Shown here one piece after another: positions 3,193-19,297 of a stretch of 24,000 nt of DNA. Every line of letters begins with the position of its first letter. Positions within the stretch are counted from its first letter, which is position 1. Location of the stretch: positions 529,669-553,668 of the forward strand of contig CAVPZS010000002.1 in the NCBI GenBank assembly GCA_963710275.1. The letters are read 5' to 3'. Position numbers and translations under genes: made by a program. The notes below the pieces were generated by a model. It saw nothing but the letters and a program-made list of their open reading frames with translations, searched no databases and had not been told where the DNA came from. The stretch is from an uncultured Alphaproteobacteria bacterium. Its GTDB lineage: Bacteria; Pseudomonadota; Alphaproteobacteria; Rhizobiales; Beijerinckiaceae.

Positions 3193-5967
3193 TCAGTGCA
3201 ACAGCCGAAGCGCACGGCCTTTCGCCACGGCGGCGGATCTGTTCTTGACGTCCAGCTTGAAATACAAGTTGGACAAATGCCATTTGATCGTCCGCACCGA
3301 TACCGACAGCCGTTCGGCGATCTGGGAGTTGTCGAGTCCCGCCTCGACGCAATGCAACAGTTCGATTTCGCGCGGCGTCGGCGGCGCCATGACGCCCTCG
3401 GGAATACGCGACTGGGGATTGCCCGCCAACAGGTCGAGCATCGAAAAAACGTGTGTGAGCGTTCCAAGCTCGTCCATATTGGTGAGGCCGAGCTCTTTCG
3501 GACGCATGCTTTCGCGAAGGTGGGCGACGAGCCGGGAACGTTTGAAATAAGGGCGATAGATCTCTCTCTTGGTCGTCAGCACGATGGCGCGTGTGAAAGC
3601 GCGCAGGGCCGCCGTGCGCGCGTCGGTCCGGAAATGGGCGTCGGCAGCCGCCAGGTTCAGTTCGATCTGGTCGCGCCGTCTTCCATCCTCCTGGGCGCAC
3701 CGGATTTCCTTTTGGAAAAGCTCCTGAGCCATGGTGAAATGCCCCCCGGCCATCAGCAGCGCCCCACTGGTCATGCGCGCGGCGGAGAGCTCCATTTTCG
3801 ACGCATTGGCCAGCAGGTCGGCCGGCCAGCCGCCCTTGGCGCTCCATCCCAGCTCTTCCGCGCGATCCATCGCCGCGTCGATGGAGCCGGCCTCCGCCAG
3901 CTCCTGAATCAGTTTCAGTTCGAACAGCACGCCAATGCGCTTTGGATAGGCCTTGACGATGGCGCGCAGATCATCGAGGGCGAAAATGGATCTGCCGCCT
4001 ATGGCCGAGGCCAAGGCGACTTCCAGCCCGGCCCAGGTCGAATCCGGGACGCCATTGGCCGTGGCGCGCAGTAGATGTTCCGCGACAATCTCCTCGGCCT
4101 TGCCCAGTTGGCCCATTTCGAGAAGGGCGCGCGCACGAACGATGGCGACAACCGAAAGGATGCTCGCGGTCGGCGTGATCTTTCCCCGCTCGGCGTGCTC
4201 AAGCCTGGACAATTCGCGTTCCGCCAAAGCCGGATCGCCCTGGCAAATTTCCCGAATGGCTTCGATGGATTCGATCCAGCAACGACCGTAGATGCTGTTC
4301 GAATGGGAAATCGCCGCTTGCGCGAGCCGCAGCGAATGGCGCGCGGCGTTATATTCGTGCCTGGAAAAGCGGGCGATGCCCAGTCCGCCCGCCGCCGCGA
4401 CGCCAAATTCGAAAGGCTCCGCGTTCGGATTGTCGCGCAGCCAGACTTCGGAGATCGCGATCGCGCTTTCTGGCGCATCGAGATGAATGGACGTCGCGAT
4501 CTCGGCAAGCGCCAGTTTGGAGCGAAGCTCCGCCGATCTCGGTTCGTCGCCTGAAGCGGCGATCTGCTCGTAAGCCGTCCGGATCTCTTCTTTCGCATCC
4601 CAAAAACGACGTTCGAACATGAGGGCCCATGCGTACCAGAAGGTCGCCAGATGGCCCCTTTTCACCCCCGCCTCGTCGGCGCTGCGGATCCAGTTGATGA
4701 ACGTGGACGTATCTCCCTGTTCTCTGACGAGGGCGCATGCGGCGCGGTCGAGAATTTCCGCGATCAACTCCCGTTCGCCGGCGTTCATCGCGAGATCGAA
4801 GGCGCTCTTCTGGTCTCCCTGCCGCATCAGCCAGCGCGCCGCTTTTGCGTGGACTTCGCTGCGCCGCGCCACTGGATGGCGGCGGCGCGCCTCCTGGACG
4901 AGAAACTGGCGAAACAGCGTATGAAACCGGAACCAGCGGTGCTGATTGTCAATCGGAATGATCATGATATTGCGGTCGATGAGAAACTGGATCCAGGCCG
5001 CCGCGCGCGGGTTGTCGGTGGCGATTTCCGCCAGCTCCGCCGAGAAATGCCGAAATTCGGCGATCTCGTAGAGAAACGTCACGAGTTCGGGATCGAATGA
5101 AGACATCAGCCGCTCGGACAGGATGTCGGCTATGTGGCCCTCGTGCCCGGCTAGCAGATCAATGCCGCGTTTCAGCGTCCCGCCTGCCTGGGCGGTCAGT
5201 TGCAGGAGGCGGATCGCCGCCGGCCAACCTTCCGTCTTGTCAACGACTTCGTCCAGAGCAGCAGGATCGATGCCCGCCAATCCGGCAGATTCAAACAATT
5301 CGGACGTCGCCTGTCGATCGAAACTAAGATCGGCGGCCTTGATCGTCTGCAGATTGAGCTCGAGATGCGCCCTGCCTGCGTTGAAAGGCACAGGAGTTGA
5401 AGACGAGGAAATGAAAAGCTTCACCCAACTGGGCGTATTGAACACCAGCGCATTGATCAGGCGATCGACCCCGGCCTCCCGGCAAAAATCGATGTTATCG
5501 ATGAAGATGATCGTCGGTCCGGGGCCCGCCGAATAGCGGCGTCGAATGTCTTCAATCCGGTCGAGAGAATCGGACTGCGACAGCTTTTCATAAACATTCA
5601 TGTCCGGACTATCGAGAGCCGTCTCCGTCTCGAACAGGCGCAGCAGACTGCCAAGGCTTGCGACGCGATCATCAAGCGCAATCCAGACGCAATGGACGCC
5701 GGAGCGTTTATATTTCTTGTAAAGCCCGGAAAGAAAAACGGTTTTTCCGTAACCTGGCGGCGCGGTGACGGTCGTGATCTTGGGCAGAGCCTGCCGCGAA
5801 GCCATGGCCGCGAACAGGCGCGTCTCGACCGGCCTGAAAGAATAGTCAGGGGGTGGGGGAAGCGCCAAAGCGGAGACTTCCGTCGCCGCATCCTGTGAAC
5901 CGGAATTCATGCAGGGCGATACAAGCTTATCGTTCCCTGGCTGGACAGGCCGGGAGGATTGTTTCAT
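3193..5967 (-). CDS. Large ATP-binding LuxR-family regulator (MalT/LAL type)
   Basis: 924 aa. Walker A APPGYGKT, Walker B-like IIFIDNIDF, a long helical TPR-like middle, and a C-terminal LuxR HTH (TPREIELLHCVEAGLDNSQIAERLSVSVRTIKWHLSNLYFKLDV). Confidence 0.85.
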   Translation of the reverse strand: MKQSSRPVQPGNDKLVSPCMNSGSQDAATEVSALALPPPPDYSFRPVETRLFAAMASRQALPKITTVTAPPGYGKTVFLSGLYKKYKRSGVHCVWIALDDRVASLGSLLRLFETETALDSPDMNVYEKLSQSDSLDRIEDIRRRYSAGPGPTIIFIDNIDFCREAGVDRLINALVFNTPSWVKLFISSSSTPVPFNAGRAHLELNLQTIKAADLSFDRQATSELFESAGLAGIDPAALDEVVDKTEGWPAAIRLLQLTAQAGGTLKRGIDLLAGHEGHIADILSERLMSSFDPELVTFLYEIAEFRHFSAELAEIATDNPRAAAWIQFLIDRNIMIIPIDNQHRWFRFHTLFRQFLVQEARRRHPVARRSEVHAKAARWLMRQGDQKSAFDLAMNAGERELIAEILDRAACALVREQGDTSTFINWIRSADEAGVKRGHLATFWYAWALMFERRFWDAKEEIRTAYEQIAASGDEPRSAELRSKLALAEIATSIHLDAPESAIAISEVWLRDNPNAEPFEFGVAAAGGLGIARFSRHEYNAARHSLRLAQAAISHSNSIYGRCWIESIEAIREICQGDPALAERELSRLEHAERGKITPTASILSVVAIVRARALLEMGQLGKAEEIVAEHLLRATANGVPDSTWAGLEVALASAIGGRSIFALDDLRAIVKAYPKRIGVLFELKLIQELAEAGSIDAAMDRAEELGWSAKGGWPADLLANASKMELSAARMTSGALLMAGGHFTMAQELFQKEIRCAQEDGRRRDQIELNLAAADAHFRTDARTAALRAFTRAIVLTTKREIYRPYFKRSRLVAHLRESMRPKELGLTNMDELGTLTHVFSMLDLLAGNPQSRIPEGVMAPPTPREIELLHCVEAGLDNSQIAERLSVSVRTIKWHLSNLYFKLDVKNRSAAVAKGRALRLLH

Positions 5968-6178: not shown

Positions 6179-7642
6179 TCAGGCTGTCTTGTCAGGCGAT
6201 CCCAGGAACAGTTTCAGCGTCAGATTTTGAACGAAATTGAGATAGGGCGGATAAAACAAACCGACCGGGAAAAACCGATGCCGTTTGAAGACCGTCCTGG
6301 CATGCGACAATTCTCGGAATCCTTCGATGCCGGTATAGCTTCCCATGCCTGAATTGCCGACGCCGCCAAAGGGCGCCGCCTGGTTGATGGCGTGCCAGAT
6401 CCAATCGTTGATGGTGACGCCGCCCGATTGCGTATTGGTCAGCACGCTGTTGCGGGCTTCCCGATCGTGACCAAAGCAATAAAGGGCAAGCGGACGCTCG
6501 CGCGTATTGATGAATGTGATCGCGTCTTCCAGCTTGTCATAGGGAACGACTGGCAGAACCGGGCCGAAAAGCTCCTCCTTCAGGATTCGCATGTCAGCCG
6601 TGCAATTCGTGACGATGTGAAGCGGCATGCGCCGCCCATCGCGTTCGCGGTCGTAAGGCGCGCACGGAATGATTTTCGCGCCCAACCGGGCGGCGTCGGC
6701 GAGCACGTCCCATATACGAGCCAGAGAACGATCGTCTATGATCGAGGTATAGTCTCGCGGTTCGTGGAAACGCTCGCCGATCAGTTTGCCAGAGCAGGTC
6801 TTCACCTCCTGTATGAAGTCATCGACGCTTTCGCGCGGCGCGAGGGCGTAATCGGGCGAAAGACAGACCTGGCCGCAATTGACCGATTTCCCGTGAACGA
6901 TGCGCAACGCTGCTTCTGATAGCGAATAGCCGCGCGTGATCACCGCCGGACATTTGCCGCCGAGTTCAAGCGTCACGGGCGTCAGATTGTCCGCTGCCGC
7001 GCGCATGACCAATTTGCCGACACGCGGCGATCCGGTGAAGACGATATGGTCGAAGGGCAAGGTCGTGAATTCGGTGGGGTCCCGCAACTCGTCGCCAAAC
7101 ACGGCGACTTCGTCTTCGTCGAAGATTTCCCCAATGATCTTGCGCATCACGGCGCTGCTGGCGGGCAAGTTTTCCGAAAATTTGAGCATCACGCGATTTC
7201 CCGCCGCCAGCGCCGTGATCATGGGACCAAGGGCGAGGAAGAACGGGAAATTCCACGGCGAGATAATGCCGACAACGCCTTTGGGTTGATAATCGACTCT
7301 CAGACTGTTGCTCGCCATGAGCAATGTGGGCCAGCGGCGGCTCGGCCTCATCCATCGACGCAACTGCGAATGGACATGATCCGCTTGCAACGCCGTCGGG
7401 AGCAAGTCGAGCATCTTCGTTTCCGCGGCGGAGCGGGTGGCGAAGTCGCGGCTGACCGCTTCGCAGATCACATCCTGGTATCGGGCCACTTGCCGCTTGA
7501 TCGCCTTGATTTTTTTGCGCCGATCCGCCAGGGACGGGTAAGGGTTCAGCCGAAAGGCCTCTTTTTGCGCGTCAAAGATCCTCCTCAGGCGTGACTGGGA
7601 CTGATTGAACGTCGGCGTAGCGACGTTGGATAGCGTCATCAT
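6179..7642 (-). CDS. NAD(P)+-dependent aldehyde dehydrogenase (class 3 / coniferyl-aldehyde-DH-like)
   Basis: 487 aa. Catalytic motifs LELGGKCP and NCGQVCLSPDY, plus FGGVGNSGMGSY. An SD-like AAGGGAG lies 5 nt upstream of the ATGATG start on the minus strand. Confidence 0.9.
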   Translation of the reverse strand: MMTLSNVATPTFNQSQSRLRRIFDAQKEAFRLNPYPSLADRRKKIKAIKRQVARYQDVICEAVSRDFATRSAAETKMLDLLPTALQADHVHSQLRRWMRPSRRWPTLLMASNSLRVDYQPKGVVGIISPWNFPFFLALGPMITALAAGNRVMLKFSENLPASSAVMRKIIGEIFDEDEVAVFGDELRDPTEFTTLPFDHIVFTGSPRVGKLVMRAAADNLTPVTLELGGKCPAVITRGYSLSEAALRIVHGKSVNCGQVCLSPDYALAPRESVDDFIQEVKTCSGKLIGERFHEPRDYTSIIDDRSLARIWDVLADAARLGAKIIPCAPYDRERDGRRMPLHIVTNCTADMRILKEELFGPVLPVVPYDKLEDAITFINTRERPLALYCFGHDREARNSVLTNTQSGGVTINDWIWHAINQAAPFGGVGNSGMGSYTGIEGFRELSHARTVFKRHRFFPVGLFYPPYLNFVQNLTLKLFLGSPDKTA

Positions 7643-7990
7643 CTTGCTCCCTTGCTATTTTCTTGGAGCATGACGCCCGAGTGCGCCACGCCGCCGCAGG
7701 ATATAGTTCCGACGCCTCCTCGCCGGGCCGGCGCGTCCGATTACCGCCGCCCATGGCGCGTTCTTCACCGGCGACTGCCCAGCCATCCGGACAAAGCGCG
7801 AAAAGGCAAACCAGGAGAGCAGGATCATGCGCCCGGCCTGCGTCAACCGGACCGTACCTAAGTATGGGCGACGCGCGCCAGCGCCGCCCAACGCTTGCGG
7901 CCCCGCCGTCGAGGGGCCCCAACATACTTTACCGCCATCGCCAGCTTTCCGGCGATAACGCTCGTCAATGCCGCCCTGTTCCGACACCAG

Positions 7991-8030
7991 ACGTGTCATA
8001 AGCTATTGTTTTAACGATATTATCTTGAAA
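7991..8030 (+). promoter_or_regulatory. AT-rich island; candidate promoter region for the CuMMO operon (long 5' UTR) and/or the divergent ALDH gene
   Basis: This is the only strongly AT-rich stretch (acgtgtcataagctattgttttaacgatattatcttgaaa) in the 728-bp intergenic region. It has a TATTAT -10-like hexamer at 8018-8023 and a weak -35 (GTCATA, 7995-8000). No transcription start data. Confidence 0.2.
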
Positions 8031-8370
8031 CCCACGCAGCTCTGCCCGCTGATTCCGCAAGCATGTGTCCCCAAGCCAAACTTTGGTACAGGGCGGCAAC
8101 GCCTCCGGTCATGTATGTCTGAATAGAGGGTCTCGAATGGGAACGGCCGGCGTCGGCGCCGTTTGAGCAAATATGGGGCGGAAAAGGGCGGGCGAAGTCG
8201 TTACCGCAAAGCCCATTTAACTTCCGTCCCAAACCTGAACGACAATGCAAGTGACCCGCGAATACTGCGGGCGCCCCGGGGAAACAGGAAGCATCATTTT
8301 CGCCTTTGGCCTTTGCCCTCGTATTTTGGCGGCGCGGAAGGCGACACGATAAGCTTAGGGAGGAGTCTTC

Positions 8371-9187
8371 ATGTCTGTCGCTCAAGAATATGACCAGTCC
8401 GCCGCAGCCGCCGTCAAGGCGAAGGTTGTCGCAAAGCTGAAAGTGTTCAACGTTGTCCCGGTGGCGCTCGCCTGGGGTCTGCTCCTGGCCATTTTCGCGG
8501 GCTTGCGCATTTATCTGCAGCTTTTCGCGTTCAAATATGGTCTCGAACTCGACGGATCAGCTTTTCGAAACCTATTGGATGACGCTGTTCAAGGTGGAGC
8601 TTCCCTTGATCTTCGGAACCGGATTCGCCATCTGGATTTACTTGTGGGTGACCCGTGATCGTCATTTCGAGGCCTTGACGCCGGAAGTCGAGCTGAGGCG
8701 TTACTTCGGTCTGGTGGGCTGGTTCCTGGTCTATGTTTTCGCGTTCTTTTTGCTCGCGGCTGTCTTCGCCGAGGGCGACGCAACCTGGCATCAGACCGTG
8801 GTCCGGGATACGCCGCTGACCCCCAGCCATATCATCACTTTCTACGCTTGCGTGCCGGTCTATCTCGTCTGTGGCGTCGGCAGCCTGCTTTATGCGGTCA
8901 CACGGCTTCCCGCCTATGCCAAAAGCTATTCCGTGCCGCTGCTGATGGTCGTGATCGGGCCGGCCATGATCCTGCCCAACGTCGGCTACAACGAATGGGG
9001 CCACGCTTTCTGGTTCACTGAAGAAATCTTTTCCCATCCGCTGCATTGGGGCTTCCCGGTATTGGGCTGGACCGGCTTGGCCCTCGGCGGCGCGCTCGTT
9101 CAGGTCATGTCCCGCATGTCGCAGTTGTTTATCAAGCTGGGCGCAGCAACATCCAAGGAAGTCGCGCCGGCGCAGGCCGCCGAGTAA
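8371..9187 (+). CDS. pmoC: CuMMO subunit C (PmoC/AmoC family), interrupted by an apparent 1-nt insertion near 8554 (pseudogene or sequencing error)
   Basis: Strong SD GGGAGGAG at 8357-8364, 6 nt before the ATG at 8371. Frame 1 gives the N-terminus and TM1 (VALAWGLLLAIFAGLRIYLQLFAFKYGLELD). Frame 2 continues from 8555 with DQLFETYWMTLFKVELPL... GDATWHQTVVRDTPLTPSH ... NEWGHAFWFTEEIFSHPLHWGF. The joined length is about 271 aa, normal for PmoC. Confidence 0.85.
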
Positions 9188-9203
9188 CGCGACAGGTTCG
9201 GTC

Positions 9204-9226
9204 CCTGGGGTGTTTCTCACCCCAGG
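9204..9226 (+). promoter_or_regulatory. Perfect 9-bp stem / 5-nt loop hairpin in the pmoC-pmoA spacer
   Basis: CCTGGGGTG-tttct-CACCCCAGG. It lies 17 nt after the pmoC stop and is followed by an A-rich tract rather than a U-run, so it is not a canonical terminator. It may be an mRNA processing or stability element. Confidence 0.45.
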
Positions 9227-9272
9227 CTATCGCCTCGCCAAAAAACCAAAAATGCTTCTGGAGGAATTTGCA

Positions 9273-10121
9273 GTGACTGAGAATGATGCAGCCGTGCTTG
9301 GCGCCGCGGGAATGTCGCCGCAGGCGGCGATTTGGTCGAGGAAATTCGACATATTGGTCATCATCATTGCCGCTTTCTTTGTGGCGTCGGTGGTCTACAT
9401 CAACTTTCTCCTTTTTGCCGGTGATTGGGACTTTTTCATCGATTTCAAGGATCGTGAATATTGGGTGGTGATCTACCCCATCGTGCAGATCATGATGGTG
9501 GCGGCATTCCAGGCGATCTTCTGGAACCTGTTCCGGCTTCCGGTCGGCGCGACGGCGTGCGCCATCATGATGTCGATATTGGTGTGGTTTGAGCGTTATC
9601 AAAGCTGGGGAGGCCTGTCCTATTTCCCCATCACGCTGGTGGCGCCGGGCACCTTCTTCGCAGGCGCGCTGATCCTGGATGGAATGTTGTGCGTCACGCG
9701 CAGTTTCCTCGTGACGGGACTTTTTGGCGGCGCGCTATTCGGCCTGACCTTTTATCCAAGCAATTGGGCTTTCTTCGCACCCTATTACCAACCCGTGAAG
9801 CTGATGGACAGCGTCGTGCCGCTCGCCAGCATGATCGGTTACGAATTCGCCCGGACAGGCACGCCCGAATATGTTCGGTTGATCGAACGCGGCACGCTGA
9901 GAACCTTCGGCAGCCCGGTCTGGGTTTCGGTGTTCTTTTCCTGTTTCGTCTGCAGTCTCCAGTACCTCGTCTGGTGGCTATTGGGCTCCCTCGCCGCCAA
10001 GGCGGCTTTCATCCCCGTCGGATACCGATTCAAGCAACTTTACGGCGCGAACGACACGGGTCAATCCGACGAGAAAAATTCTGTCGGCCTGAACGTCAAG
10101 ACGACGGGAGGCGTGGCATGA
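9273..10121 (+). CDS. pmoA: CuMMO subunit A (PmoA/AmoA family), divergent
   Basis: Contains FAGDWDFFIDFKDREYW, FRLPVGAT, SYFPITLVAP, FYPSNW and RTGTPEYVRLIERGTLRTFG. A GTG at 9273 sits 7 nt after GGAGGA (9260-9265). The alternative ATG at 9252 has no SD. The stop overlaps the pmoB start (ATGA at 10118-10121). Confidence 0.9.
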   Translation: MTENDAAVLGAAGMSPQAAIWSRKFDILVIIIAAFFVASVVYINFLLFAGDWDFFIDFKDREYWVVIYPIVQIMMVAAFQAIFWNLFRLPVGATACAIMMSILVWFERYQSWGGLSYFPITLVAPGTFFAGALILDGMLCVTRSFLVTGLFGGALFGLTFYPSNWAFFAPYYQPVKLMDSVVPLASMIGYEFARTGTPEYVRLIERGTLRTFGSPVWVSVFFSCFVCSLQYLVWWLLGSLAAKAAFIPVGYRFKQLYGANDTGQSDEKNSVGLNVKTTGGVA

Positions 10122-11383
10122 AACTCAAATTCTGGCGGAATCCAGCCCTCCTGCCGCTGGTCCTCATCCTGTTCGGACTTCTTCCCAAAACTGCGATGGC
10201 GCTGGGAGAGAAGTCGACCGAGCCCTATATCCGCACGCGAACCGTGCTTTGGTATGACGTGAAGTGGAGCGCCGATAAAGTCGCCGTGAACGACACGGTG
10301 ACGGTGACAGGGAAGTTCCATCTTTTCACCGATTGGCCCGACGCTTCCAATCGGCCCGACCTGGTCTTCCTGGGAGAAACCACGCCCGGCGCGAGCATGA
10401 CCCGCGTCGAGAGTTATATCGACGGCGTGCCAGCCAACCAGTCGACGCGCGGCCTGGAACTGGGCAGCGAACATGAAGTGAAGCTGGTTTTGAAGGCCCG
10501 CGTGCCAGGCCGCTGGCATCTTCAGCCCGAACTGAATGTCAAGGGCGCCGGGCCGATCATCGGTCCGGGCAAATGGATCGAGATCACCGGCGACTTTGCC
10601 GACTATCGGAACTCCGTGACGACGGTCACCGGGGTCGAGATTCCCGACTTGCAGACCTACAACATCGGCCGGGTCCACGCCTGGCACGCGTTCTGGTTTG
10701 TCTTGGGCGTCGCATGGATTCTGTGGTGGCTTCGCAGACCCCTGCTGATCCCACGCTGGATTGCGATGAAAGCGGGGCGCGACGACATTCTCGTGACCAG
10801 CGCGGATGACAAATTCGGAGCGGGACTGATCGTGGTGGCGCTGGTGGCCACGGTGGCCGGCTTCTGGAACATCAATCAGGAGTTTCCTTATACCGTGCCG
10901 CTTTCCGCCGGATCGAACAAGGTCCAGGCGCCTCCCGAACAACCTCACCCCGTGAAGTTCACGGACGCGCGGGCTGAATACGATGTTCCCGGTCGCACCT
11001 TGCGGCTTTACGCGACAGTCACAAATTCGGGCGCGCTTCCCCTGCGGATCGGCGAGTTCACGACGGCGCAACTTCGTTTCGTCAATCGCGACCTGCCGGC
11101 GGAGATCAAGAACATCGATCCCGACTACCCGAAAGTGCTGATCGCGCCGACTCCTTTGAAAGTCGACCCTGACACGCCGATTCAACCCGGCGAGACGCGG
11201 AAGGTTTACATGGAGGCGACAGACGCCGCCTGGGAGACAGAGCGCCTGATGAGCTTCCTGAACGACATCGACACCCGGATCGGCGGCCTCATGTTCGTCT
11301 TCGACGATGCGGGGAAGCGGTATCTCGCTGAAATCGGTGGACCGGTTGTGCCGGTCTTCGCGCAAAAAACGAGCCAACGCTAA
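10118..11383 (+). CDS. pmoB: CuMMO subunit B (PmoB/AmoB family), divergent, CuB ligands incomplete
   Basis: 421 aa. Signal peptide MKLKFWRNPALLPLVLILFGLLPKTAMA, then LGEKSTEPYIRTRTVLWYDVKW, GKFHLF, PGRWHLQPELNVKGAGPIIGPGKWIEITG, AWHAFWFVLGVAWILWWLRRPLLIPR, and the C-terminal cupredoxin domain (PGETRKVYMEATDAAWETERL). Confidence 0.9.
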   Translation: MKLKFWRNPALLPLVLILFGLLPKTAMALGEKSTEPYIRTRTVLWYDVKWSADKVAVNDTVTVTGKFHLFTDWPDASNRPDLVFLGETTPGASMTRVESYIDGVPANQSTRGLELGSEHEVKLVLKARVPGRWHLQPELNVKGAGPIIGPGKWIEITGDFADYRNSVTTVTGVEIPDLQTYNIGRVHAWHAFWFVLGVAWILWWLRRPLLIPRWIAMKAGRDDILVTSADDKFGAGLIVVALVATVAGFWNINQEFPYTVPLSAGSNKVQAPPEQPHPVKFTDARAEYDVPGRTLRLYATVTNSGALPLRIGEFTTAQLRFVNRDLPAEIKNIDPDYPKVLIAPTPLKVDPDTPIQPGETRKVYMEATDAAWETERLMSFLNDIDTRIGGLMFVFDDAGKRYLAEIGGPVVPVFAQKTSQR

Positions 11384-11415
11384 GTTGCAGCGGCCTCGCC
11401 GGGATACGAAGACGA

Positions 11416-12066
11416 ATGAATAGACAAGCTATTCCGCGTCGTGCAGGCAGGGAGCAGGCTTCTGCTCCCTGCCGCGCCAGCCATCGGCGCGCCCGCGTTC
11501 TCGGAGCACTGGGGTTGCTTCTCGCCGCCTCGCTTCCCGGCCCCGCCACGGGCCATGGCGGCGTCGCCATGGACAAGGACGTGTGCAAGCTGCGGCTCGG
11601 CCCCTATGTCATGCATTTCACGGGCTATCAGGTTCGCAACTTCGGCGGGAACACCGAATTTTGCGAGGATATCCCGGCGCTTGGCAAGACGATCCTCGTC
11701 ATGGACGCGGTCGACCCTGTCTTGCGCGAGATCCCGATCACCGCCCGTATCGTTCGTGACGTCGGCGGCGGCAATAAGTTGACCGAAATGGGATCTGAAA
11801 TCGACAAGGTCACGATCGTCAAAATTCCGGAAAAGGTCTATCCGACCGGAAGCTTGTCGATGGAATATGATTTCAAGCAGCCAGGGTATTTCGTTGGCGT
11901 TGTGACCGCAGGCCCACATGGCGAATATGTTTCGATGTTCCCATTCAGTGTCGGCGTCAACCGGAATGCGTATTGGCTCTACGCATTCTTGGCGGCGATT
12001 CCGGTCTTCGTCTTCGGCCTTTTCGCCTATTCGGTTCGGAACCGAAAAACACGTGAGAAAGGCTGA
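11416..12066 (+). CDS. Periplasmic protein with C-terminal TM anchor in the PmoD/AmoD position (family not confirmed)
   Basis: 216 aa. Arg-rich n-region with an RR pair, hydrophobic core VLGALGLLLAASL, and a predicted cleavage ATG|HGGV that would leave an N-terminal His. A beta-rich body contains C..(9)..MH. C-terminal helix AYWLYAFLAAIPVFVFGLFAYSV followed by basic residues. It starts 32 nt after pmoB and ends 1 nt before copC. Confidence 0.6.
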   Translation: MNRQAIPRRAGREQASAPCRASHRRARVLGALGLLLAASLPGPATGHGGVAMDKDVCKLRLGPYVMHFTGYQVRNFGGNTEFCEDIPALGKTILVMDAVDPVLREIPITARIVRDVGGGNKLTEMGSEIDKVTIVKIPEKVYPTGSLSMEYDFKQPGYFVGVVTAGPHGEYVSMFPFSVGVNRNAYWLYAFLAAIPVFVFGLFAYSVRNRKTREKG

Positions 12067-12067
12067 C

Positions 12068-12478
12068 ATGATGTTCGAAATTTTACCAAGGGGCGGCCAT
12101 CGCTGGCGGGCGGCTGGAATATTATGTTGCGCGCTGTTCCATGCCGCCGGTTCGAGTTCCGCCCTTGCGCATGCGGGGCTGGTGAAGTCCGTTCCCGGCA
12201 GCCGCGCCGTCCTGGATCACCCGCCGAGCCAGATCGAGTTGTGTTTCAACGAGCGTGTCGAACTGAAATTCTCGACGGTAGGACTAACAGCGCCAAACGG
12301 CGAGAAGCTTGCCCTGGGCCCGCTTTCGGCGGGTGAGACCGAGCCGAAATGCCTGCGCGCTTCCGCGCCGGAACTGAAGGATGCCGGCGTCTACACCGTG
12401 AGATATCGCGTCCTTTCTACCGATGGGCACGTCGTCGACTATGGCTTCACGTTCAGCTACCAGCCCAAGACGAAATGA
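12068..12478 (+). CDS. copC: Periplasmic copper-binding protein CopC (Cu(II)-only type, no Met-rich Cu(I) site)
   Basis: Signal peptide ending SALA|HAGLVKSVPG (mature N-terminal His). The hallmark is YRVLSTDGHVVDYGFTF. The mature domain contains no Met residues. The stop overlaps the copD start (ATGA at 12475-12478). Confidence 0.9.
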   Translation: MMFEILPRGGHRWRAAGILCCALFHAAGSSSALAHAGLVKSVPGSRAVLDHPPSQIELCFNERVELKFSTVGLTAPNGEKLALGPLSAGETEPKCLRASAPELKDAGVYTVRYRVLSTDGHVVDYGFTFSYQPKTK

Positions 12479-14475
12479 CTCCGGCGATCTGGCTCGTCTT
12501 GCTGCGAGGCGTCGGCCATGGCTGCCTGGCGCTCGCTGCGGGCGGGACTTTGTTTCTGCTGATTTCCCGGCAGACCGCGGATCCCCCCACCATCGCGTGG
12601 ACCCGTCGTTGGCATCGCTATTTGCCTTGGGTCGCGGCGGTCTATCTTGTTTGCACGACAGCTGCTTTGTTTTTTCAGGCGGCGATCGCCGCTGACATGC
12701 AGCCAGCGCTGATGATCCACGACATAGAAATGTTGCGCGCCTATGTCCTCGACACGCGACACGGGAGGATGGCGCTCGCCAATCTGGGCGTTGCGGTCCT
12801 GATGCTCCCTCCAGCGCTAATTCTGTCGTTCCATCGCTGCAGTGACACAGGCGAGAGATTTGCTTTGGCGGCCTTGGCTGCCTTGGCGGCGGCGACGGCG
12901 GGAATGGGCCCGCTGTCAGGACATGCCGCGGCCGACGAGACGACATATTGGCTCGTTCCTTTTCATGTCGGCCATCTCGTGGCGATGTCGCTGTGGATTG
13001 GCGGCCTGCCGCTCTGGATCGCCTTCGCCCACTGGTCTGCGCGACACGCAACTTCCGCATCGCCCGCTTCCGCGCGCATCGTGCGCAGCTTCTCCTCGCT
13101 GGCGACACTCTGCATGGCGGTGATTGTCGTTTCCGGCGTGTTGCTGGCCAGCACATTCGCGGGATCGGTCGGCGACCTTCTCGGCACGAGCTATGGCTAC
13201 CTGATTTGCGCCAAACTGGCGCTGCTTGCGGGCGTATTGCTGATCGCCAACCGCATCCGCCAGCAGTTTCTCCCGCGTCTCTCTGACGCCGGCGATCCCG
13301 GTTACGCGCGGGCGGCGCGATCCGTGGCCGTCGAGCTTCTTTTCGCCCTGCTTATACTCGCCCTCGCCTCTATCCTGGCCCAGACCGCTCCAGCGATCCA
13401 CGATCAGCCGATCTGGCCGCTGCCCTTCCGCTTCTCCCTGGACGCAACGTGGCCCGCGTGGCCCACTCCGCTCGTTACGACCATCGCAATACTGGCCGCA
13501 GCCGCCGCCCTCGGCCTGCTCGTCGCCCGACGTCAACGGTTGGCGCCATCGACACGCGCGATCTGCCTCTTGGTCGCTGTCATCGGTATCGGCGTTGCCG
13601 GCTGGCAAGTGTCCGTCCCCGCTTTCCCGGATACTTATCGCCGCTCGACAGTCCCCTATCTGACCGTCTCGATTGTGGAGGGCATGCGCAACTTCAACAG
13701 CTTGTGCACGGGCTGCCATGGAGCTGGTGCGCTGGGCGACGGACCATTACGCGGTTCGTTGCCGGGACGGCCGCCCGCCAATCTCAGCGAACCGCATACG
13801 GCGCTGCATACCGCCGGCGACATGTTCTGGTGGATCGGTCACGGCATTCCCTCGAGCGGCATGCCTTCATTCGCCGACCAGCTGGATGAGCAGGCGCGCT
13901 GGGATACGATCAACTTCCTCCGCGCCTTTTCCGAGGGATTCCAGGCGCGCATCCTGCAGCCCTTCGTCATTCCCGACCGGCCCTGGTTGGGCGCGCCGAA
14001 TTTCAACTTCGCCGGCAAAGACGGCGAACAGCGCGAGCTGAAGGATTACCGCAACAAATCCAACGTGCTTCTCGTGTTCGCGTCGCGCGACGCAACCGAT
14101 GCGACCCGGCGCGCCCAACAACTTGGGAGCGCTTTGGAGGCGCTGCGCGCCGCCCGATGCGAAATCCTCTTCGTCGTCTCCGACGCCGCCATCGACGACA
14201 TGGGCTTCGAAGTCATTCGCGATCAGGCGGAAGAACTGCGCGCCGCCTACGATTTGTTATCGAGAACCATTGCCAACCGCGGCGACGGACGACAGCTCGG
14301 AATGCGGCGCGACAGCATGGAATTTCTCATAGATCGCTTCGGTTTTCTTCGCGCGCGATGGATACCCGCCGAAGACCCCGGGCGTTGGACGCGCCCTCAG
14401 ACATTGGCGTCTGATCTGCGCATCCTCAACGATGAACCACAAATCCTGGCGTCACCGGACAATCATGTCCACTGA
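12475..14475 (+). CDS. copD: CopD-family membrane protein fused to a c-type cytochrome domain and a Cys-less thioredoxin/peroxiredoxin-like domain
   Basis: 666 aa. CopD core with GHAAADE and HVGHLVAMSLWIGGLPL motifs and multiple TM helices. CxxCH (CTGCH, nt 13705-13719) with a downstream GMPSF Met ligand. A C-terminal redoxin-like segment (NVLLVFASRD..., MEFLIDRFGFLRARWI) has no Cys at the active-site position. Confidence 0.85.
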   Translation: MTPAIWLVLLRGVGHGCLALAAGGTLFLLISRQTADPPTIAWTRRWHRYLPWVAAVYLVCTTAALFFQAAIAADMQPALMIHDIEMLRAYVLDTRHGRMALANLGVAVLMLPPALILSFHRCSDTGERFALAALAALAAATAGMGPLSGHAAADETTYWLVPFHVGHLVAMSLWIGGLPLWIAFAHWSARHATSASPASARIVRSFSSLATLCMAVIVVSGVLLASTFAGSVGDLLGTSYGYLICAKLALLAGVLLIANRIRQQFLPRLSDAGDPGYARAARSVAVELLFALLILALASILAQTAPAIHDQPIWPLPFRFSLDATWPAWPTPLVTTIAILAAAAALGLLVARRQRLAPSTRAICLLVAVIGIGVAGWQVSVPAFPDTYRRSTVPYLTVSIVEGMRNFNSLCTGCHGAGALGDGPLRGSLPGRPPANLSEPHTALHTAGDMFWWIGHGIPSSGMPSFADQLDEQARWDTINFLRAFSEGFQARILQPFVIPDRPWLGAPNFNFAGKDGEQRELKDYRNKSNVLLVFASRDATDATRRAQQLGSALEALRAARCEILFVVSDAAIDDMGFEVIRDQAEELRAAYDLLSRTIANRGDGRQLGMRRDSMEFLIDRFGFLRARWIPAEDPGRWTRPQTLASDLRILNDEPQILASPDNHVH

Positions 14476-14500
14476 CTGGGAAAAGAGGAGGAGCATCAAG

Positions 14501-14953
14501 ATGAAAAAATATTTGGCCATCATGGCCCTGACGGCCGGTCTGCTCGCGCAAACCCCTGCTTGGGCGCAAACTCCCGAGCATCACCATCATGACGCCGATG
14601 CGCCGTCGATGGCCGCGGCTGCTGTCGCGACGCCGCCGCTCAAAATCCTGATGCCGGAAAACGGCGACGCTGTCGGAACGACGCTGGGAGTCATTTTCCA
14701 AACGCCCGCCGATCTCGCGGTGATGACGATCGGTAGCGGCGAGCCCGGCGTTCATCTTCATATCGAGATCGCAGGCAAGACATTGATGCCGACGCACCAG
14801 AAACTCGTAGGCCTCGGAGAGAACCGGTATTTTTTCCCTTTCGACTTGCCGGCCGCCCTGGGTCCCAACACGATCAAGATCTATTGGGCGGACAAGCAGC
14901 ACCGGACCATCGCGGATAGCGTCCAGGAAGTGCGGGTCACGGTCAAGCCGTGA
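14501..14953 (+). CDS. His-rich periplasmic protein (possibly DUF4399-like), putative metal binding
   Basis: SD AAGAGGAGGA at 14483-14492. Signal peptide MKKYLAIMALTAGLLAQTPAWA, mature N-terminus QTPEHHHHDADAP, and an internal GVHLHIEI. It begins 25 nt after copD and is the last gene of the + strand run. Confidence 0.7.
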   Translation: MKKYLAIMALTAGLLAQTPAWAQTPEHHHHDADAPSMAAAAVATPPLKILMPENGDAVGTTLGVIFQTPADLAVMTIGSGEPGVHLHIEIAGKTLMPTHQKLVGLGENRYFFPFDLPAALGPNTIKIYWADKQHRTIADSVQEVRVTVKP

Positions 14954-14976
14954 CGGATGCTTGCTCGGAAAGCTCT

Positions 14977-15897
14977 TTACCGAGATTGCCCCTGGATCGT
15001 CGCGCCAGCCGCCTGATGCGCGAGGAAACCGACAATTTCCCGGGGATCGCCGGCCCAGCGCAAATGGCCGCGCCTGGGCTCGCAATAAGTTGTCGGCGCC
15101 GAGCAACCGCTGAAAGTAACACAATCGCCGGCTGACGAGGGCTGCGGTTTTCCGCTGTCCTGACAGCGGTTGCAGCTTGACCAATAGGCGGCTGCGTCCC
15201 GACCGAAGCCAGGAAAATGTCCGTCATCTGCGCCATGCATGATGAGGACGGGCAGCGGAGCGCCGCAAGCGGCGGAATCGAAATCGCTTTTTTCCCAGCC
15301 GGCGCCGCTGATGGCGATACCGTGGAAGAGCCGGCCGTATTTGGGCAAGACGGCAAGGGCCGTAGCAATTGTGCCGCCATCCGAGTGACCAGTTGCATAG
15401 ATACGATCGGGATCGACGCACCAACGGTCTTTGACCTCGCGAACAACCGCCGCAAAATGGTCAATCGCCGCCAGGCTCATCTGGAGACTGCCGACATAGG
15501 TCACGATGAAGCCGGCCTGCGTCGCCTCGGCGGTGAGACCCGCGTATCGTTCCGATAGCCATGGAGGGAAACCAGCAGGCGCATAAACGACCAGCAGCGG
15601 ATGGGCGTAGCCCGCCAGGTAGTTGCGGGGCGTTATCACCGTAAAGGGCAGCCCCGCGCCGCTGCGCATTTCATGCCTGCCCGCTGTTCCCTGGCGCGTC
15701 CCGAGCGGACAGGAGGTGGCGCTGGCGGCGGCGCCGGGATACGAAGCGTCGGCGGATTCGATCATGTCTCCAGCGTAAAACAGCGTTCTCATGACGAAAC
15801 ATACGGCAACACCCGCCACAAGAAGGCCGAGCGCATAGACGCGGATGCGTGTCGGGACCGAACGCAACGACATCAGGAAGTCAGGTCCAGGATTCAT
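14977..15897 (-). CDS. Membrane-anchored alpha/beta hydrolase (esterase / PHB-depolymerase-like)
   Basis: N-terminal TM helix (VYALGLLVAGVAVCFV), nucleophile elbow GHSDGG, LIMHGADDGHFP, and a Cys-rich C-terminus. The start is uncertain: Met at 15897 or 15873. The upstream part of the ORF reaching 15987 looks non-coding. Confidence 0.7.
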   Translation of the reverse strand: MNPGPDFLMSLRSVPTRIRVYALGLLVAGVAVCFVMRTLFYAGDMIESADASYPGAAASATSCPLGTRQGTAGRHEMRSGAGLPFTVITPRNYLAGYAHPLLVVYAPAGFPPWLSERYAGLTAEATQAGFIVTYVGSLQMSLAAIDHFAAVVREVKDRWCVDPDRIYATGHSDGGTIATALAVLPKYGRLFHGIAISGAGWEKSDFDSAACGAPLPVLIMHGADDGHFPGFGRDAAAYWSSCNRCQDSGKPQPSSAGDCVTFSGCSAPTTYCEPRRGHLRWAGDPREIVGFLAHQAAGATIQGQSR

Positions 15898-16039
15898 GCG
15901 GCGCAACCAGCATCGGAAGCAACGACACCCCGGCCTTGCATCGTCACAAGGGGGCGTTGAAGCGATAAACATCGGTCCGGCCATCACCGGCAGTTACAGT
16001 TTGGCCAGCCATGACAGCCTTGTCTCCGGCCATTTCGAC

Positions 16040-16770: not shown

Positions 16771-17153
16771 AGCGAGAACACCCCAGCGCCGCCGCCGCTT
16801 CAACGCGTTTTTGGCGACCTGCGCCAAAATGCCGCAGGGGAAACATCGCAACGGCGCCAGTCATTCCTGCAGATCGAAGCACGACCCGCCAGGCCCTTGA
16901 TCAGCGTCAGGCACCCATGATTTATTTACATAATTGCAAGAATTGGCAATGGAGCCCCGGTTGGCTTGACCCGACCAACAAGCCGCGCTTCGCCTGTAAA
17001 AACAGAGTAAACTTTTGATTTATACGTAGTTTTCCCGGTATTGCCACACGACTACACCAACAATACGCTGGTCAGTGCGATGCGGCGCAAGGATCCATGA
17101 GCAGATTATTGCCTGCATGCCGCAGTTGTTAATTGGTTTTCAGGGGGCGACAG

Positions 17154-18392: not shown

Positions 18393-18429
18393 AGCGCCGG
18401 GCGATCGCGGCGCAGCATACGAGCGAATT

Positions 18430-18460
18430 CCTCCAGACCGCAAATCTGGAGGTTTTTTTT
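18430..18460 (+). terminator. Rho-independent terminator
   Basis: CCTCCAGA-ccgcaaa-TCTGGAGG followed by T8 (18453-18460). It lies 38 nt after the stop of the 17154-18392 gene. Confidence 0.8.
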
Positions 18461-18492
18461 GCTGGAAGCGGCAACCGAACCGGCGCCCGACT

Positions 18493-19287
18493 TCAGGGCT
18501 GATCGAGGCGCGCAGTTCCGATTTCTTCGCGTATCGCCTGCACGAGTTCCGCTCCCAATGAACGGGACATCCGGGAGGTCGGGACGACGATGCCCAATGC
18601 GGCCTCGCCGGTAAAACCCATGGGCGCGCGCATCCCCACGCCTCCCAGCCTCCGGCCGACGATTTCGGCGTAGCCGAGCTTGCGGACCTGGCGCGCCCAG
18701 CGCAACAGGCGGGTCGTCGTCATGCCCTGGGCGAGGTAGAGATCGCGATTGCGCTCATGGTGGGCGATGGCCTCGGCATCGTTCATCCGGCCCAGAAAGA
18801 CGAAGCTCGGCACGCCGAGTCCAAGAAGGCGCATGGTGCCGACGACCTCGGTAAAGCTGCGGATCGGCGTCGGCCCTTCCTCGATTGCGATGCACTGGCT
18901 GTAGTCGCCCGCGCGCGCGACCAGGAAGACGTGTTCGCCGGTGCGCTTGGCGAGCGCGCGCATGACGGGCTTGTAAATGCGCGCCAGCGGCGGCCGGCGC
19001 ATCGAGGCGAGGCCCAGCGCCATCGCCTCCACACCCAACTGGTACAGATGCGTTTCGGGATCGCGCTCGACCAGCCCGGCGCGCGCCAACGCAGAAATAA
19101 TCCGGTGGACCGTCGTCCTGTTGAGCCCGCTTCGACGGACCAGCGTCGCCAGAGGCGCGCCCTGCGCATGGCGGGCGGCGACGAGCCGCAACAAAAGCGC
19201 GGCGCGGTCAGTACTCTGCGCGCCGCGCGGCGGCGCGGTCCCGCCAGCTTCGTCGTCGCGCGCATCAGCAATTGGACTATCCAGCAT
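18493..19287 (-). CDS. IclR-family transcriptional regulator
   Basis: 264 aa. N-terminal wHTH (LATLVRRSGLNRTTVHRIISALARAGLVERD) and a C-terminal IclR effector domain. Confidence 0.9.
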   Translation of the reverse strand: MLDSPIADARDDEAGGTAPPRGAQSTDRAALLLRLVAARHAQGAPLATLVRRSGLNRTTVHRIISALARAGLVERDPETHLYQLGVEAMALGLASMRRPPLARIYKPVMRALAKRTGEHVFLVARAGDYSQCIAIEEGPTPIRSFTEVVGTMRLLGLGVPSFVFLGRMNDAEAIAHHERNRDLYLAQGMTTTRLLRWARQVRKLGYAEIVGRRLGGVGMRAPMGFTGEAALGIVVPTSRMSRSLGAELVQAIREEIGTARLDQP

Positions 19288-19297
19288 TTCACTATTG

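What the first reader, a model, noticed from the sequence alone, without database searches (positions are those of the whole stretch)
10202..10525. PmoB homologue lacks the CuB histidine brace (N-terminal His is Leu; HxH is HLQ)
After the predicted signal peptide (…KTAMA|) the mature protein starts LGEKSTEPYIRTRTVLWYD. M. capsulatus Bath PmoB starts HGEKSQAAFMRMRTIHWYD, where that His is His33. The Leu codon is at 10202-10204. The canonical WHVH motif (His137/His139) reads WHLQ here (10514-10525), so only one of the three CuB ligands survives. His48 of the Bath CuA site is also Leu, while His72 (GKFHLF) is kept. As far as I know, loss of the CuB ligands is described mainly for verrucomicrobial PmoB. 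Finding it in a proteobacterial-looking CAB operon would be unusual.
Basis: partly seen in the sequence, partly recalled or inferred. Interest (0 to 1): 0.8.

Follow-up and report, generated by a model that had tools for sequence, protein, structure and literature searches.

The report
Proteobacterial copper monooxygenase lacking CuB histidines
A small Bradyrhizobium-associated lineage of membrane copper monooxygenases has replaced two of the three histidines that normally hold the "CuB" copper in subunit B. It keeps the altered site under strong selection, so it is a second, independent natural test of whether that copper is needed.

Summary
The pmoB homologue (10118-11383) aligns without gaps to M. 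capsulatus Bath PmoB around both motifs: Leu29 = His33, His134 = His137, Gln136 = His139, Leu44 = His48, His68 = His72.

It is neither an error nor decay.
- All seven 90%-identity clusters of the clade (70-89% identical to the window protein, eight loci) carry L/H/Q. One is annotated in NCBI as uncultured Bradyrhizobium sp.
- All 114 next-nearest homologues (57% identity or less) carry H/H/H.
- The Leu29 codon varies synonymously across the clade.
- dN/dS is 0.10-0.18 for pmoB and 0.02-0.10 around the former site.
- In an NJ tree the clade is monophyletic (100/100), sits inside histidine-bearing Burkholderiales/Solimonas-type enzymes, and never joins Verrucomicrobia (0/100). The loss is therefore independent.

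The PmoC CuC and CuD ligands are intact, and pmoD-copC-copD follow the operon. Neighbouring genes and an Ala/Pro at the PmoC specificity position suggest a short-chain hydrocarbon oxidiser.

Best reading: an active CuB-free enzyme that catalyses in PmoC.

Caveats: activity and metal content are untested, and the window's own pmoC has a unique 1-nt frameshift. Papers from 2018-2026 that I could search name only Verrucomicrobia as lacking CuB ligands.

The parts
8371..9187 (+). pmoC homologue, disrupted by a single extra A near 8546-8548 (frameshift at about codon 59). After removing that base it reads as a 271-aa PmoC with the CuC (D/H/H) and CuD (N/H/H) ligands intact.
9273..10121 (+). pmoA homologue (282 aa; GTG start with a GGAGGA Shine-Dalgarno sequence). 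Its stop codon overlaps the pmoB ATG (ATGA).
10118..11383 (+). pmoB homologue, 421 aa. It matches PF04744, NF041640 and TIGR03079, the two NCBIfam models above their curated cut-offs.
10118..10201 (+). Signal peptide (residues 1-28, ending ...KTAMA). The -3/-1 Ala or Val pattern is conserved across the clade and aligns with the AxA|H site of homologues.
10202..10204 (+). Leu29 codon (CTG), equivalent to Bath His33, the N-terminal ligand of the CuB histidine brace. The codon is CTG, TTG, CTC or CTT in different clade members.
10247..10249 (+). Leu44 codon, equivalent to Bath His48 (bis-His site). This position varies across the family (H, Q or Y).
10319..10321 (+). His68 codon, equivalent to Bath His72 (bis-His site). 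It is kept here. Among the 120 homologues and the two references the position is His (51) or Arg (70).
10514..10531 (+). W133-H134-L135-Q136-P137-E138. His134 = Bath His137 (kept, invariant). Gln136 = His139 (lost; always CAG). Glu138 = Bath Met141, a Glu newly fixed in the clade.
11416..12066 (+). pmoD homologue (216 aa). The Cys and His of the CuA-like site are kept and the Met is replaced by Val.
12068..12478 (+). copC homologue (CopC domain).
12475..14475 (+). Fusion of copD, a cytochrome c domain and an AhpC/TSA (thioredoxin-like) domain. The start is inferred from the 666-aa orthologue in L001.
14432..15987 (.). Two further conserved genes of the 7.5-kb module: a 173-aa ORF on the + strand with no family match, and a 336-aa esterase-like ORF on the - strand.
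6179..7642 (-). Divergently transcribed aldehyde dehydrogenase. An ALDH also neighbours the operon in L007, L009 and the sister locus L011.

Best explanation
The window encodes an xmoCAB-pmoD-copCD module of a copper membrane monooxygenase (CuMMO). It belongs to a small lineage whose named members are Bradyrhizobium (Alphaproteobacteria).

In this lineage the B subunit lost the CuB histidine brace by two point substitutions, His33 to Leu and His139 to Gln. It kept His137 and gained a Glu two residues further along the same strand. The altered site has since been maintained by purifying selection.

My inference is that the enzyme is assembled and active without a canonical CuB copper. Catalysis would occur at the intact CuC/CuD copper sites of subunit C, and subunit B would serve as a periplasmic scaffold. 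The enzyme most likely oxidises a short-chain hydrocarbon rather than methane or ammonia.

Shown here: the substitutions, their conservation within the clade, selection on them, their independent origin, intact PmoC ligands and the copper-handling accessory genes. Inferred: activity, absence of copper at the old site, and the substrate.
For: (1) The alignment to Bath PmoB is exact around both motifs.

(2) The query and P0001-P0006 (70-89% identity) are all L/L/H/H/Q, and the other 114 homologues are all His at positions 33, 137 and 139.

(3) Only 7 clade-fixed substitutions fall in columns that are at least 80% conserved outside the clade. Two of them are the CuB ligands.

(4) dN/dS is 0.10-0.18 for pmoB and 0.04-0.15 for its N-terminal cupredoxin domain. 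It is 0.02-0.10 for the 43 codons flanking the site, with dS of 0.3-2.3. Leu29 is encoded by CTG, TTG, CTC or CTT. pmoC and pmoA have dN/dS of 0.12-0.20.

(5) In the NJ tree the clade is monophyletic in 100/100 bootstraps. It nests among histidine-bearing sequences (Solimonas and Burkholderiales types) and joins Verrucomicrobia in 0/100.

(6) PmoC D156/H160/H173 and N227/H231/H245 are conserved in all five clade loci that carry pmoC.

(7) The pmoD, copC and copD-cytochrome c genes are retained. The same architecture occurs in the histidine-bearing sister locus L010.

(8) The AF2 model (pLDDT 78.8) matches AmoB and PmoB structures with target-normalised TM-scores of 0.80-0.85.

(9) Two lines bear on the substrate.
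- The PmoC position equivalent to Bath D168 is Ala or Pro in the clade. It is Asp in pMMO and Ser in AmoC of ammonia oxidisers. PMC8630023 reports Ala for hydrocarbon monooxygenase (HMO) at site HmoC151, which I infer to be this position.
- The neighbouring genes are ALDH, PQQ alcohol dehydrogenase, SDR, an FMO-like Baeyer-Villiger monooxygenase and an esterase.

(10) Mutagenesis of mycobacterial HMO, as summarised in PMC13058606 and PMC11725843, found that CuB mutants keep some activity whereas CuC mutants lose it entirely.
Against: There are no activity, expression or metal data for any member of the clade.

The window's own pmoC carries a frameshift that none of the four relatives has. This particular copy may therefore be inactive, or the assembly may be wrong at that base.

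The N-terminal amine, His134, Gln136 and the new Glu138 could still bind a metal, so 'CuB-free' is not proven.

The AF2 model has low confidence for residues 25-36 and says nothing about the geometry of the site.

Replacing one CuB histidine in HMO reduced activity significantly (PMC11725843), so the loss may carry a cost or may need compensation that I did not identify.

The organism the window comes from is not itself named. The Bradyrhizobium assignment rests on relatives (L003, and P0275 = WP_298362357.1).
Confidence: 0.65

Rival explanations
1. The operon is a decaying, non-functional paralogue, and loss of the CuB ligands is part of that decay.
For: The window's pmoC is frameshifted by one extra A. 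No functional data exist for the clade.
Against: dN/dS is 0.10-0.20 for pmoC, pmoA and pmoB across eight loci, with dS up to about 2. The region around the lost ligands is the most constrained part of pmoB, at 0.02-0.10. pmoC is intact in L001, L003, L007 and L009. Downstream of the frameshift the window's pmoC has no further defect, and its dN/dS against L001 is 0.197, which is not raised.
Confidence: 0.08
2. The site is remodelled, not lost. The N-terminal amine of Leu29, His134, Gln136 and the newly fixed Glu138 bind copper in a different geometry, or bind another metal, and the B subunit keeps a metal-dependent role.
For: His134 is invariant. Gln136 is invariant, always CAG. Glu138 is fixed in 7/7 clade members, whereas fewer than 10% of the 114 other homologues have Glu there (most have Val, Met or Ile). 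The segments flanking the site are under the strongest constraint in the protein. From general knowledge, Gln is an accepted copper ligand in some cupredoxins such as stellacyanin.
Against: Two of the four nitrogen donors of CuB are gone. Leu is a non-ligating hydrophobic residue and is also the replacement in a verrucomicrobial-pattern (L-P-G) representative, P0137. Strong conservation is explained equally well by packing against PmoA and PmoC. No structural evidence is available because the AF2 model has low confidence at residues 25-36.
Confidence: 0.17
3. The finding is an artefact: a sequencing or assembly error, a strain-specific mutation, or a misplaced signal-peptide cleavage site that hides a real N-terminal His.
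For: The same window does contain one probable single-base indel, in pmoC.
Against: The same residues occur in seven protein clusters and eight loci from independent ENA, JGI, Logan and NCBI samples, with different codons. There is no His in residues 1-67. The AxA cleavage motif aligns with the experimentally defined mature N-terminus of Bath PmoB.
Confidence: 0.01
4. This CuB-less B subunit is not the only one in the cell. A second, histidine-bearing xmoB or a whole second CuMMO elsewhere in the genome supplies the CuB function or is the main enzyme, as with the multiple pmo operons of Methylacidiphilum.
For: Multiple CuMMO operons per genome are common in methanotrophs (general knowledge; the Methylacidiphilum entries show several PmoB paralogues). 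Only 24 kb of this genome is visible.
Against: The gene is translationally coupled to its own pmoA (ATGA overlap) inside a complete, conserved CAB-D-copCD module. Purifying selection acts on this copy itself. The genome scan with query-derived peptides found only one locus in the Bradyrhizobium MAG. That scan was built to find close relatives only, so it is weak evidence.
Confidence: 0.09

Closest known systems
Histidine-bearing CuMMOs of Burkholderiales, Solimonas and related MAGs (for example P0007 in L010, P0011 in L011, P0068 from Solimonas; 53-57% identity)
   Same: Nearest relatives in the tree. The module architecture is identical: xmoCAB, a pmoD-like gene, copC, copD-cytochrome c and a small ORF. 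The N-terminal motif is nearly identical, A|xGE(K/R)(S/A)TEPYIRTRTVxWYDV. The PmoC CuC and CuD ligands are the same, and L010 has Ala at the PmoC specificity position.
   Different: They keep His33, His137 and His139 in 114/114 sequences. The window clade has Leu, His and Gln plus Glu138.
Verrucomicrobial PmoB (Methylacidiphilum; representatives P0142 and P0147, plus the unnamed P0137 with the same pattern)
   Same: A CuMMO B subunit without the CuB histidine brace, while the C-subunit copper ligands are conserved (PMC13058606). A hydrophobic residue (Leu, Ile or Met) sits at the mature N-terminus.
   Different: All three His are lost there (L/I/M, Pro, Gly). Here His137 is kept and His139 becomes Gln. 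Kimura protein distance from the query is about 1.4-1.5, and the two groups never cluster (0/100 bootstraps). They belong to a different phylum and are thermoacidophilic methanotrophs.
M. capsulatus Bath pMMO PmoB (PDB 3RGB, 1YEW, 7S4H)
   Same: Matches over residues 11-414 with E = 1.5e-111. It has the same fold (sequence identity 44% in that structure alignment), the same signal-peptide cleavage register, and the same PmoC CuC and CuD ligands.
   Different: Bath has the full CuB site and a bis-His site (His48, His72). The window protein has Leu29, Gln136 and Leu44. The PmoC position D168 is Pro here. The genomic context shows no methanol dehydrogenase.
Mycobacterial hydrocarbon monooxygenase (HMO, hmoCAB; for example on the Mycolicibacterium chubuense NBB4 plasmid, hit H2)
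   Same: A CuMMO acting on short-chain hydrocarbons. PMC8630023 reports Ala at the HmoC151 site, which I infer to be Bath D168, and most clade members have Ala there. Mutagenesis showed that the C-site is essential and the B-site is not absolutely required (as cited in PMC13058606).
   Different: Only about 31% identical. It is actinobacterial, and wild-type HMO keeps the CuB histidines.

Membership tests
CuMMO subunit B (PmoB/AmoB; Pfam PF04744, NCBIfam NF041640, TIGR03079) | Scores above the curated HMM cut-offs | tested here: met
   NF041640 scores 508 bits against a cut-off of 336. TIGR03079 scores 436.5 bits against 394.9. PF04744 is precomputed on all of the listed homologues.
CuMMO subunit B (PmoB/AmoB; Pfam PF04744, NCBIfam NF041640, TIGR03079) | Cleaved signal peptide, two periplasmic cupredoxin-like domains and a two-helix transmembrane hairpin | tested here: met
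   The AF2 model has beta domains at residues 43-157 and 266-414 and helices at 183-255. Foldseek matches 9leg_B, 1yew_A and 9cl6_A at E of 1e-42 to 1e-44 with target-normalised TM-scores of 0.81-0.85.
CuMMO subunit B (PmoB/AmoB; Pfam PF04744, NCBIfam NF041640, TIGR03079) | Encoded in an xmoCAB operon next to the A and C subunits | tested here: met
   pmoC lies at 8371-9187 and pmoA at 9273-10121, both with strong PDB and Pfam matches. The window's pmoC has a 1-nt frameshift.
CuMMO subunit B (PmoB/AmoB; Pfam PF04744, NCBIfam NF041640, TIGR03079) | CuB histidine brace (Bath His33, His137, His139) | tested here: not met
   Leu29, His134 and Gln136: only one of the three is present. This feature is typical of the family but is already known to be absent in Verrucomicrobia, so it does not exclude membership.
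Complete CuMMO holoenzyme with a PmoC copper active site | CuC ligands Asp156, His160, His173 and CuD ligands Asn227, His231, His245 in subunit C | tested here: met
   All six are conserved in the window (after repairing the frameshift), L001, L003, L007 and L009.
Verrucomicrobial CuB-less PmoB lineage | Shared ancestry with Methylacidiphilum PmoB and its L/I/M-Pro-Gly pattern at positions 33, 137 and 139 | tested here: not met
   The pattern here is L-H-Q. The NJ tree separates the two groups (0/100 bootstraps for a joint clade) and nests the window clade in histidine-bearing proteobacterial sequences.
Particulate methane monooxygenase (functional pMMO) | Methane oxidation; Asp at the PmoC specificity position; linkage to methanol oxidation genes | tested here: inconclusive
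   The PmoC position D168 is Pro or Ala, not Asp. No methanol dehydrogenase lies in the window or in L001, L003 or L009. L009 has a PQQ alcohol dehydrogenase with a cytochrome c domain. Activity cannot be tested here.
Short-chain hydrocarbon CuMMO (HMO-like function) | Ala at the HmoC151-equivalent position; neighbouring alcohol, aldehyde and ketone oxidation genes; growth on C2-C4 hydrocarbons | tested here: inconclusive
   Ala is present in L003, L007, L009 and the sister L010. The window and L001 have Pro. ALDH is adjacent in the window, L007, L009 and L011. L009 also has PQQ-ADH, SDR, an FMO-like monooxygenase and an esterase. Growth and activity are not testable with these tools.

The most novel reading that the evidence does not exclude
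A proteobacterial CuMMO whose PmoB matches Bath PmoB end to end (E = 1.5e-111) works naturally without the CuB histidine brace. It evolved this independently of Verrucomicrobia. It has a histidine-bearing sister enzyme with identical operon architecture, which makes a ready-made natural swap pair (L29H/Q136H against H-to-L/H-to-Q) for deciding what CuB does. A more radical version is that the conserved Leu29-amine/His134/Gln136/Glu138 constellation is a new kind of metal or proton-relay site in subunit B.
Probability: 0.6. Interest if true: 0.7.

Novelty: new variant of a known kind. Interest (0 to 1): 0.62.

Why it matters
The location of the pMMO/AMO active site and the role of CuB have been debated for about two decades. 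A main natural argument that CuB is dispensable is the verrucomicrobial enzymes, which are very divergent (PMC11725843, PMC13058606). Recent metagenomic studies cite the presence of all three B-site histidines as support that a newly found CuMMO is genuine and active (PMC9038741, PMC12533140).

A second, independent loss weakens that criterion. It occurs in a proteobacterial enzyme much closer to the structurally characterised pMMOs and AMOs, it is kept under strong purifying selection, and the PmoC sites are intact. It also strengthens the view that the active site lies in PmoC.

The lineage offers a closer comparator for spectroscopy, since one fewer Cu(II) signal would be expected. It could also support reciprocal mutagenesis against a 57%-identical histidine-bearing sister. 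It further hints at hydrocarbon-oxidising potential in Bradyrhizobium-like soil bacteria.

Tried and rejected
- **Exact look-ups.** Looking up the window's PmoB, and its identical database copy P0273, to find the source contig returned nothing. P0273 and P0301 only show that it is an NCBI/ENA contig of 746,363 bp.
- **Naming the organism.** I searched with the window's acyl-CoA carboxyltransferase. The nearest non-self hits are 81% identical and unnamed. Named hits at 69-75% are mostly Burkholderiales, with one Bradyrhizobium, so the gene is not informative.
- **Metagenome and genome scans.** These yielded one locus each. The clade is rare in those collections.
- **Plasmid searches.** There was no DNA match. 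The protein search found only distant CuMMOs from Methylomagnum, Mycolicibacterium, Mycobacterium and Rhodococcus. There is no evidence that the module is plasmid-borne.
- **Promoter and terminator scan of 7600-12200.** The counts are at the level expected from shuffled sequence.
- **AF2 monomer model.** It confirms the fold, but residues 25-36 have pLDDT below 50. It cannot be used to judge the geometry of the site.
- **Rochman et al. 2020** (betaproteobacterial CuMMOs) could not be retrieved.
- **Literature searches.** Combining Bradyrhizobium with CuMMO, PmoB, CuB or pmoCAB found no description of this feature.
- A first dN/dS run for pmoA used an out-of-frame start and was redone. A first PmoC ligand table used the wrong numbering offset and was redone.
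Full report
**1. The observation**

The + strand carries an operon of three genes:
- pmoC at 8371-9187,
- pmoA at 9273-10121,
- pmoB at 10118-11383.

pmoB has a GGGAGG ribosome-binding site, and its ATG overlaps the pmoA stop codon (ATGA). Codon 29 (10202-10204) is CTG, Leu. Codons 133-136 (10514-10525) read TGG CAT CTT CAG, W-H-L-Q.

phmmer against all PDB chains gives M. capsulatus Bath PmoB as the best match (E = 1.5e-111), with no gaps around either motif. The correspondences are Leu29 = His33, Leu44 = His48, His68 = His72, His134 = His137 and Gln136 = His139. The mature crystallised chain, which begins at His33, aligns its residue 2 to query residue 30.

The signal peptide is canonical: K2, K4 and R7, a hydrophobic core, and A-M-A at positions -3 to -1. 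The first histidine in the protein is residue 68, so no alternative cleavage site could give an N-terminal His.

**2. It is a lineage trait, not an error**

A search of 5.8 billion protein clusters returned six clusters at 70-89% identity, followed by a sharp drop to 57% or less.

| Group | Bath positions 33 / 48 / 72 / 137 / 139 | Source |
|---|---|---|
| Window protein plus six close clusters (7/7) | L / L / H / H / Q | |
| Remaining 114 homologues | His at 33, 137 and 139 in 114/114; positions 48 and 72 vary | |

Only seven substitutions are fixed in the clade at columns that are at least 80% conserved outside it. Two of those seven are the CuB ligands.

DNA for eight loci from independent ENA, JGI, Logan and NCBI samples shows Leu29 encoded by CTG, TTG, CTC or CTT. 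His134 is CAT or CAC, and Gln136 is always CAG.

| Region | Pairwise dN/dS | Source |
|---|---|---|
| pmoB, whole gene | 0.10-0.18 | |
| pmoB N-terminal cupredoxin domain | 0.04-0.15 | |
| 43 codons flanking the former CuB site | 0.02-0.10 (dS 0.3-2.3) | |
| pmoC and pmoA | 0.12-0.20 | |

The site has been remodelled and is being conserved. It is not decaying. A Glu at position 138 (Bath Met141) is fixed in the clade, while the 114 other homologues mostly have Val, Met or Ile there. It lies two residues after Gln136, so on a β-strand it should point the same way.

**3. The loss is independent of the verrucomicrobial one**

I also ran the protein against the 1.84-billion-sequence library of 50%-identity representatives. 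Of about 65 full-length representatives, 54 have H/H/H.

The brace-less ones with a normal PmoB layout are mainly three representatives with L/I/M-Pro-Gly. Two of these (P0142, P0147) carry Methylacidiphilum names, and the third (P0137) is unnamed. The rest are a handful of atypical proteins, mostly fusions.

An NJ tree of 82 sequences makes the window clade monophyletic in 100/100 bootstraps. It nests among histidine-bearing sequences whose named members are Solimonas, Burkholderiaceae, Vitreoscilla and similar taxa. It never groups with Verrucomicrobia (0/100).

The pattern also differs. This clade keeps His137 and has Gln at position 139, whereas Verrucomicrobia lose all three histidines.

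**4. The rest of the enzyme**

After removing one base (see section 7), the window's PmoC is a 271-aa protein. Its CuC ligands (Asp156, His160, His173) and CuD ligands (Asn227, His231, His245) are all intact. The same holds for the intact PmoC of L001, L003, L007 and L009.

Downstream lie three copper-related genes:
- a PmoD homologue (E = 4.9e-17 to PDB 6CPD, with the Cys and His of the CuA-like site kept);
- CopC;
- a fusion of CopD, a cytochrome c domain and a thioredoxin-like domain.

The 7.5-kb module (8325-15865) is conserved at 85% nucleotide identity in L001 and 73.5% in L003, with unrelated flanks. The histidine-bearing sister locus L010 has the same gene order. The module therefore predates the loss, and copper handling was kept.

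The AF2 model (pLDDT 78.8) superposes on AmoB and PmoB structures with target-normalised TM-scores of 0.80-0.85. Residues 25-36 are low-confidence, so I draw nothing about site geometry from it.

**5. Organism and probable function**

L003 is a MAG labelled uncultured Bradyrhizobium sp.. Cluster member P0275 is WP_298362357.1, also from uncultured Bradyrhizobium sp., and was seen on 284 contigs. The window's own record is an unnamed NCBI/ENA contig of 746 kb with 62% G+C in the window. Khadka et al. 2018 list a Bradyrhizobium CuMMO 'of unknown function' but do not discuss its ligands.

Two observations bear on the substrate.
- **PmoC specificity position.** PMC8630023 describes a specificity-linked site, HmoC151: Ala in hydrocarbon monooxygenase and Asp in methanotrophs. 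I infer this to be the position of Bath D168. There the structures show Asp in pMMO and Ser in AmoC of ammonia oxidisers. The clade has Ala (L003, L007, L009) or Pro (window, L001), and the sister L010 has Ala.
- **Neighbouring genes.** These include an aldehyde dehydrogenase (window, L007, L009 and sister L011). L009 also has a PQQ alcohol dehydrogenase with a cytochrome c domain, an SDR, an FMO-like monooxygenase and an esterase.

Both point to oxidation of a short-chain alkane or a related compound rather than methane or ammonia. This is inference only.

**6. Mechanism**

The best-supported reading is an active CuMMO that does without a canonical CuB copper. Oxygen activation and substrate oxidation would occur at CuC/CuD in subunit C. 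Subunit B would act as a scaffold, with Leu29 packing in place of the metal-bound imidazole and His134, Gln136 and Glu138 forming a polar network.

The field's current view fits this (PMC11725843, PMC13058606): CuB is coordinatively saturated Cu(II), mutation of the C-site ligands abolishes HMO activity, and B-site mutants keep some activity.

The main live alternative is a remodelled metal site made of the N-terminal amine, His134, Gln136 and Glu138. I give it about 0.17. Pseudogenisation, an artefact and dependence on a second xmoB are less likely (see the rival explanations).

**7. Caveat specific to this window**

pmoC contains one extra A ('CTCGAACTCG' near 8546-8548). L001, L003, L007 and L009 all lack it. 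It shifts the frame at about codon 59. The remainder of the gene is undamaged, and its dN/dS against L001 is not raised. This is either an assembly error or a very recent inactivating mutation in this strain. It does not affect the clade-level conclusion.

**8. Novelty**

Papers in the searchable library, including 2024-2026 structural and review papers, name Verrucomicrobia as the only lineage lacking CuB ligands. New CuMMO lineages are reported with the presence of all three B-site histidines cited in support of their being genuine. Searches combining Bradyrhizobium with CuMMO terms found no description of this feature.

I classify it as a new variant of a known kind. It is of moderate-to-high interest to copper monooxygenase specialists because it gives a second, much closer natural CuB-less enzyme with a histidine-bearing sister for direct comparison.

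Noticed in passing
window 8540-8550 (pmoC, 8371-9187): A single extra A ('CTCGAACTCG') that is absent from four relatives frameshifts pmoC at about codon 59. The gene then reads as two overlapping ORFs, 8371-8658 and 8453-9187. It is either an assembly error or a very recent inactivation.
   Followed up: yes
window 11416-12066: This 216-aa ORF has no Pfam or NCBIfam hit but is a PmoD homologue (PDB 6CPD, E = 4.9e-17). The Cys and His of the CuA-like site are conserved and the axial Met is replaced by Val.
   Followed up: partly
window 12475-14475: One polypeptide fuses CopD, a cytochrome c domain and an AhpC/TSA (thioredoxin-like) domain. It is conserved downstream of xmoCAB-pmoD-copC in the clade loci L001, L002 and L009 and in the histidine-bearing sister L010. 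It is possibly a copper delivery or reduction device.
   Followed up: partly
window 8867-8869 (PmoC residue aligned to Bath Asp168; position counted on the unrepaired sequence): The PmoC position I infer to be the substrate-specificity site (HmoC151) is Pro in the window and L001. It is Ala in L003, L007, L009 and L010, Trp in L011, Asp in pMMO and Ser in AmoC of ammonia oxidisers.
   Followed up: partly
window 10529-10531 (Glu138 of PmoB): Glu is fixed in all clade members, whereas fewer than 10% of the 114 other homologues have it (most have Val, Met or Ile). It lies two residues after Gln136 and is a possible compensating change for the lost CuB site.
   Followed up: partly
window 8325-15865 compared with L001 843-8407 and L003 8229-15833: The 7.5-kb module (xmoCAB, pmoD, copC, copD fusion, a 173-aa ORF and an esterase-like ORF on the - strand) is conserved, but its flanks differ completely between genomes. 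This suggests that the module moves as a unit.
   Followed up: partly
L009 3102-8007 and 17612-21108: One clade member has several alcohol, aldehyde and ketone oxidation genes around the operon: a PQQ alcohol dehydrogenase with a cytochrome c domain, an ALDH, an AraC regulator, an SDR, an FMO-like (Baeyer-Villiger type) monooxygenase and an esterase. This is a plausible alkane/ketone oxidation neighbourhood.
   Followed up: no
proteins P0170, P0196, P0204 and P0203 (50%-identity representative library): Three long proteins (471-775 aa) carry both PmoB cupredoxin domains without the transmembrane hairpin, fused to unrelated N-terminal regions, and lack the histidine brace. P0203 (464 aa) looks like another B subunit, with Q/N/H at the brace positions.
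   Followed up: no
window 3193-5967 (- strand): A 924-aa LuxR-family regulator with an AAA/STAND ATPase domain lies upstream of the divergent ALDH and xmoCAB. It is a candidate regulator of the cluster.
   Followed up: no
window 17133-23513: A cluster of acyl-CoA metabolism genes: two acyl-CoA dehydrogenases, a family III CoA-transferase, an acyl-CoA carboxylase beta subunit and an IclR regulator. The nearest named homologues of the carboxylase are mostly Burkholderiales (about 73% identity) rather than Bradyrhizobium (69%).
   Followed up: partly
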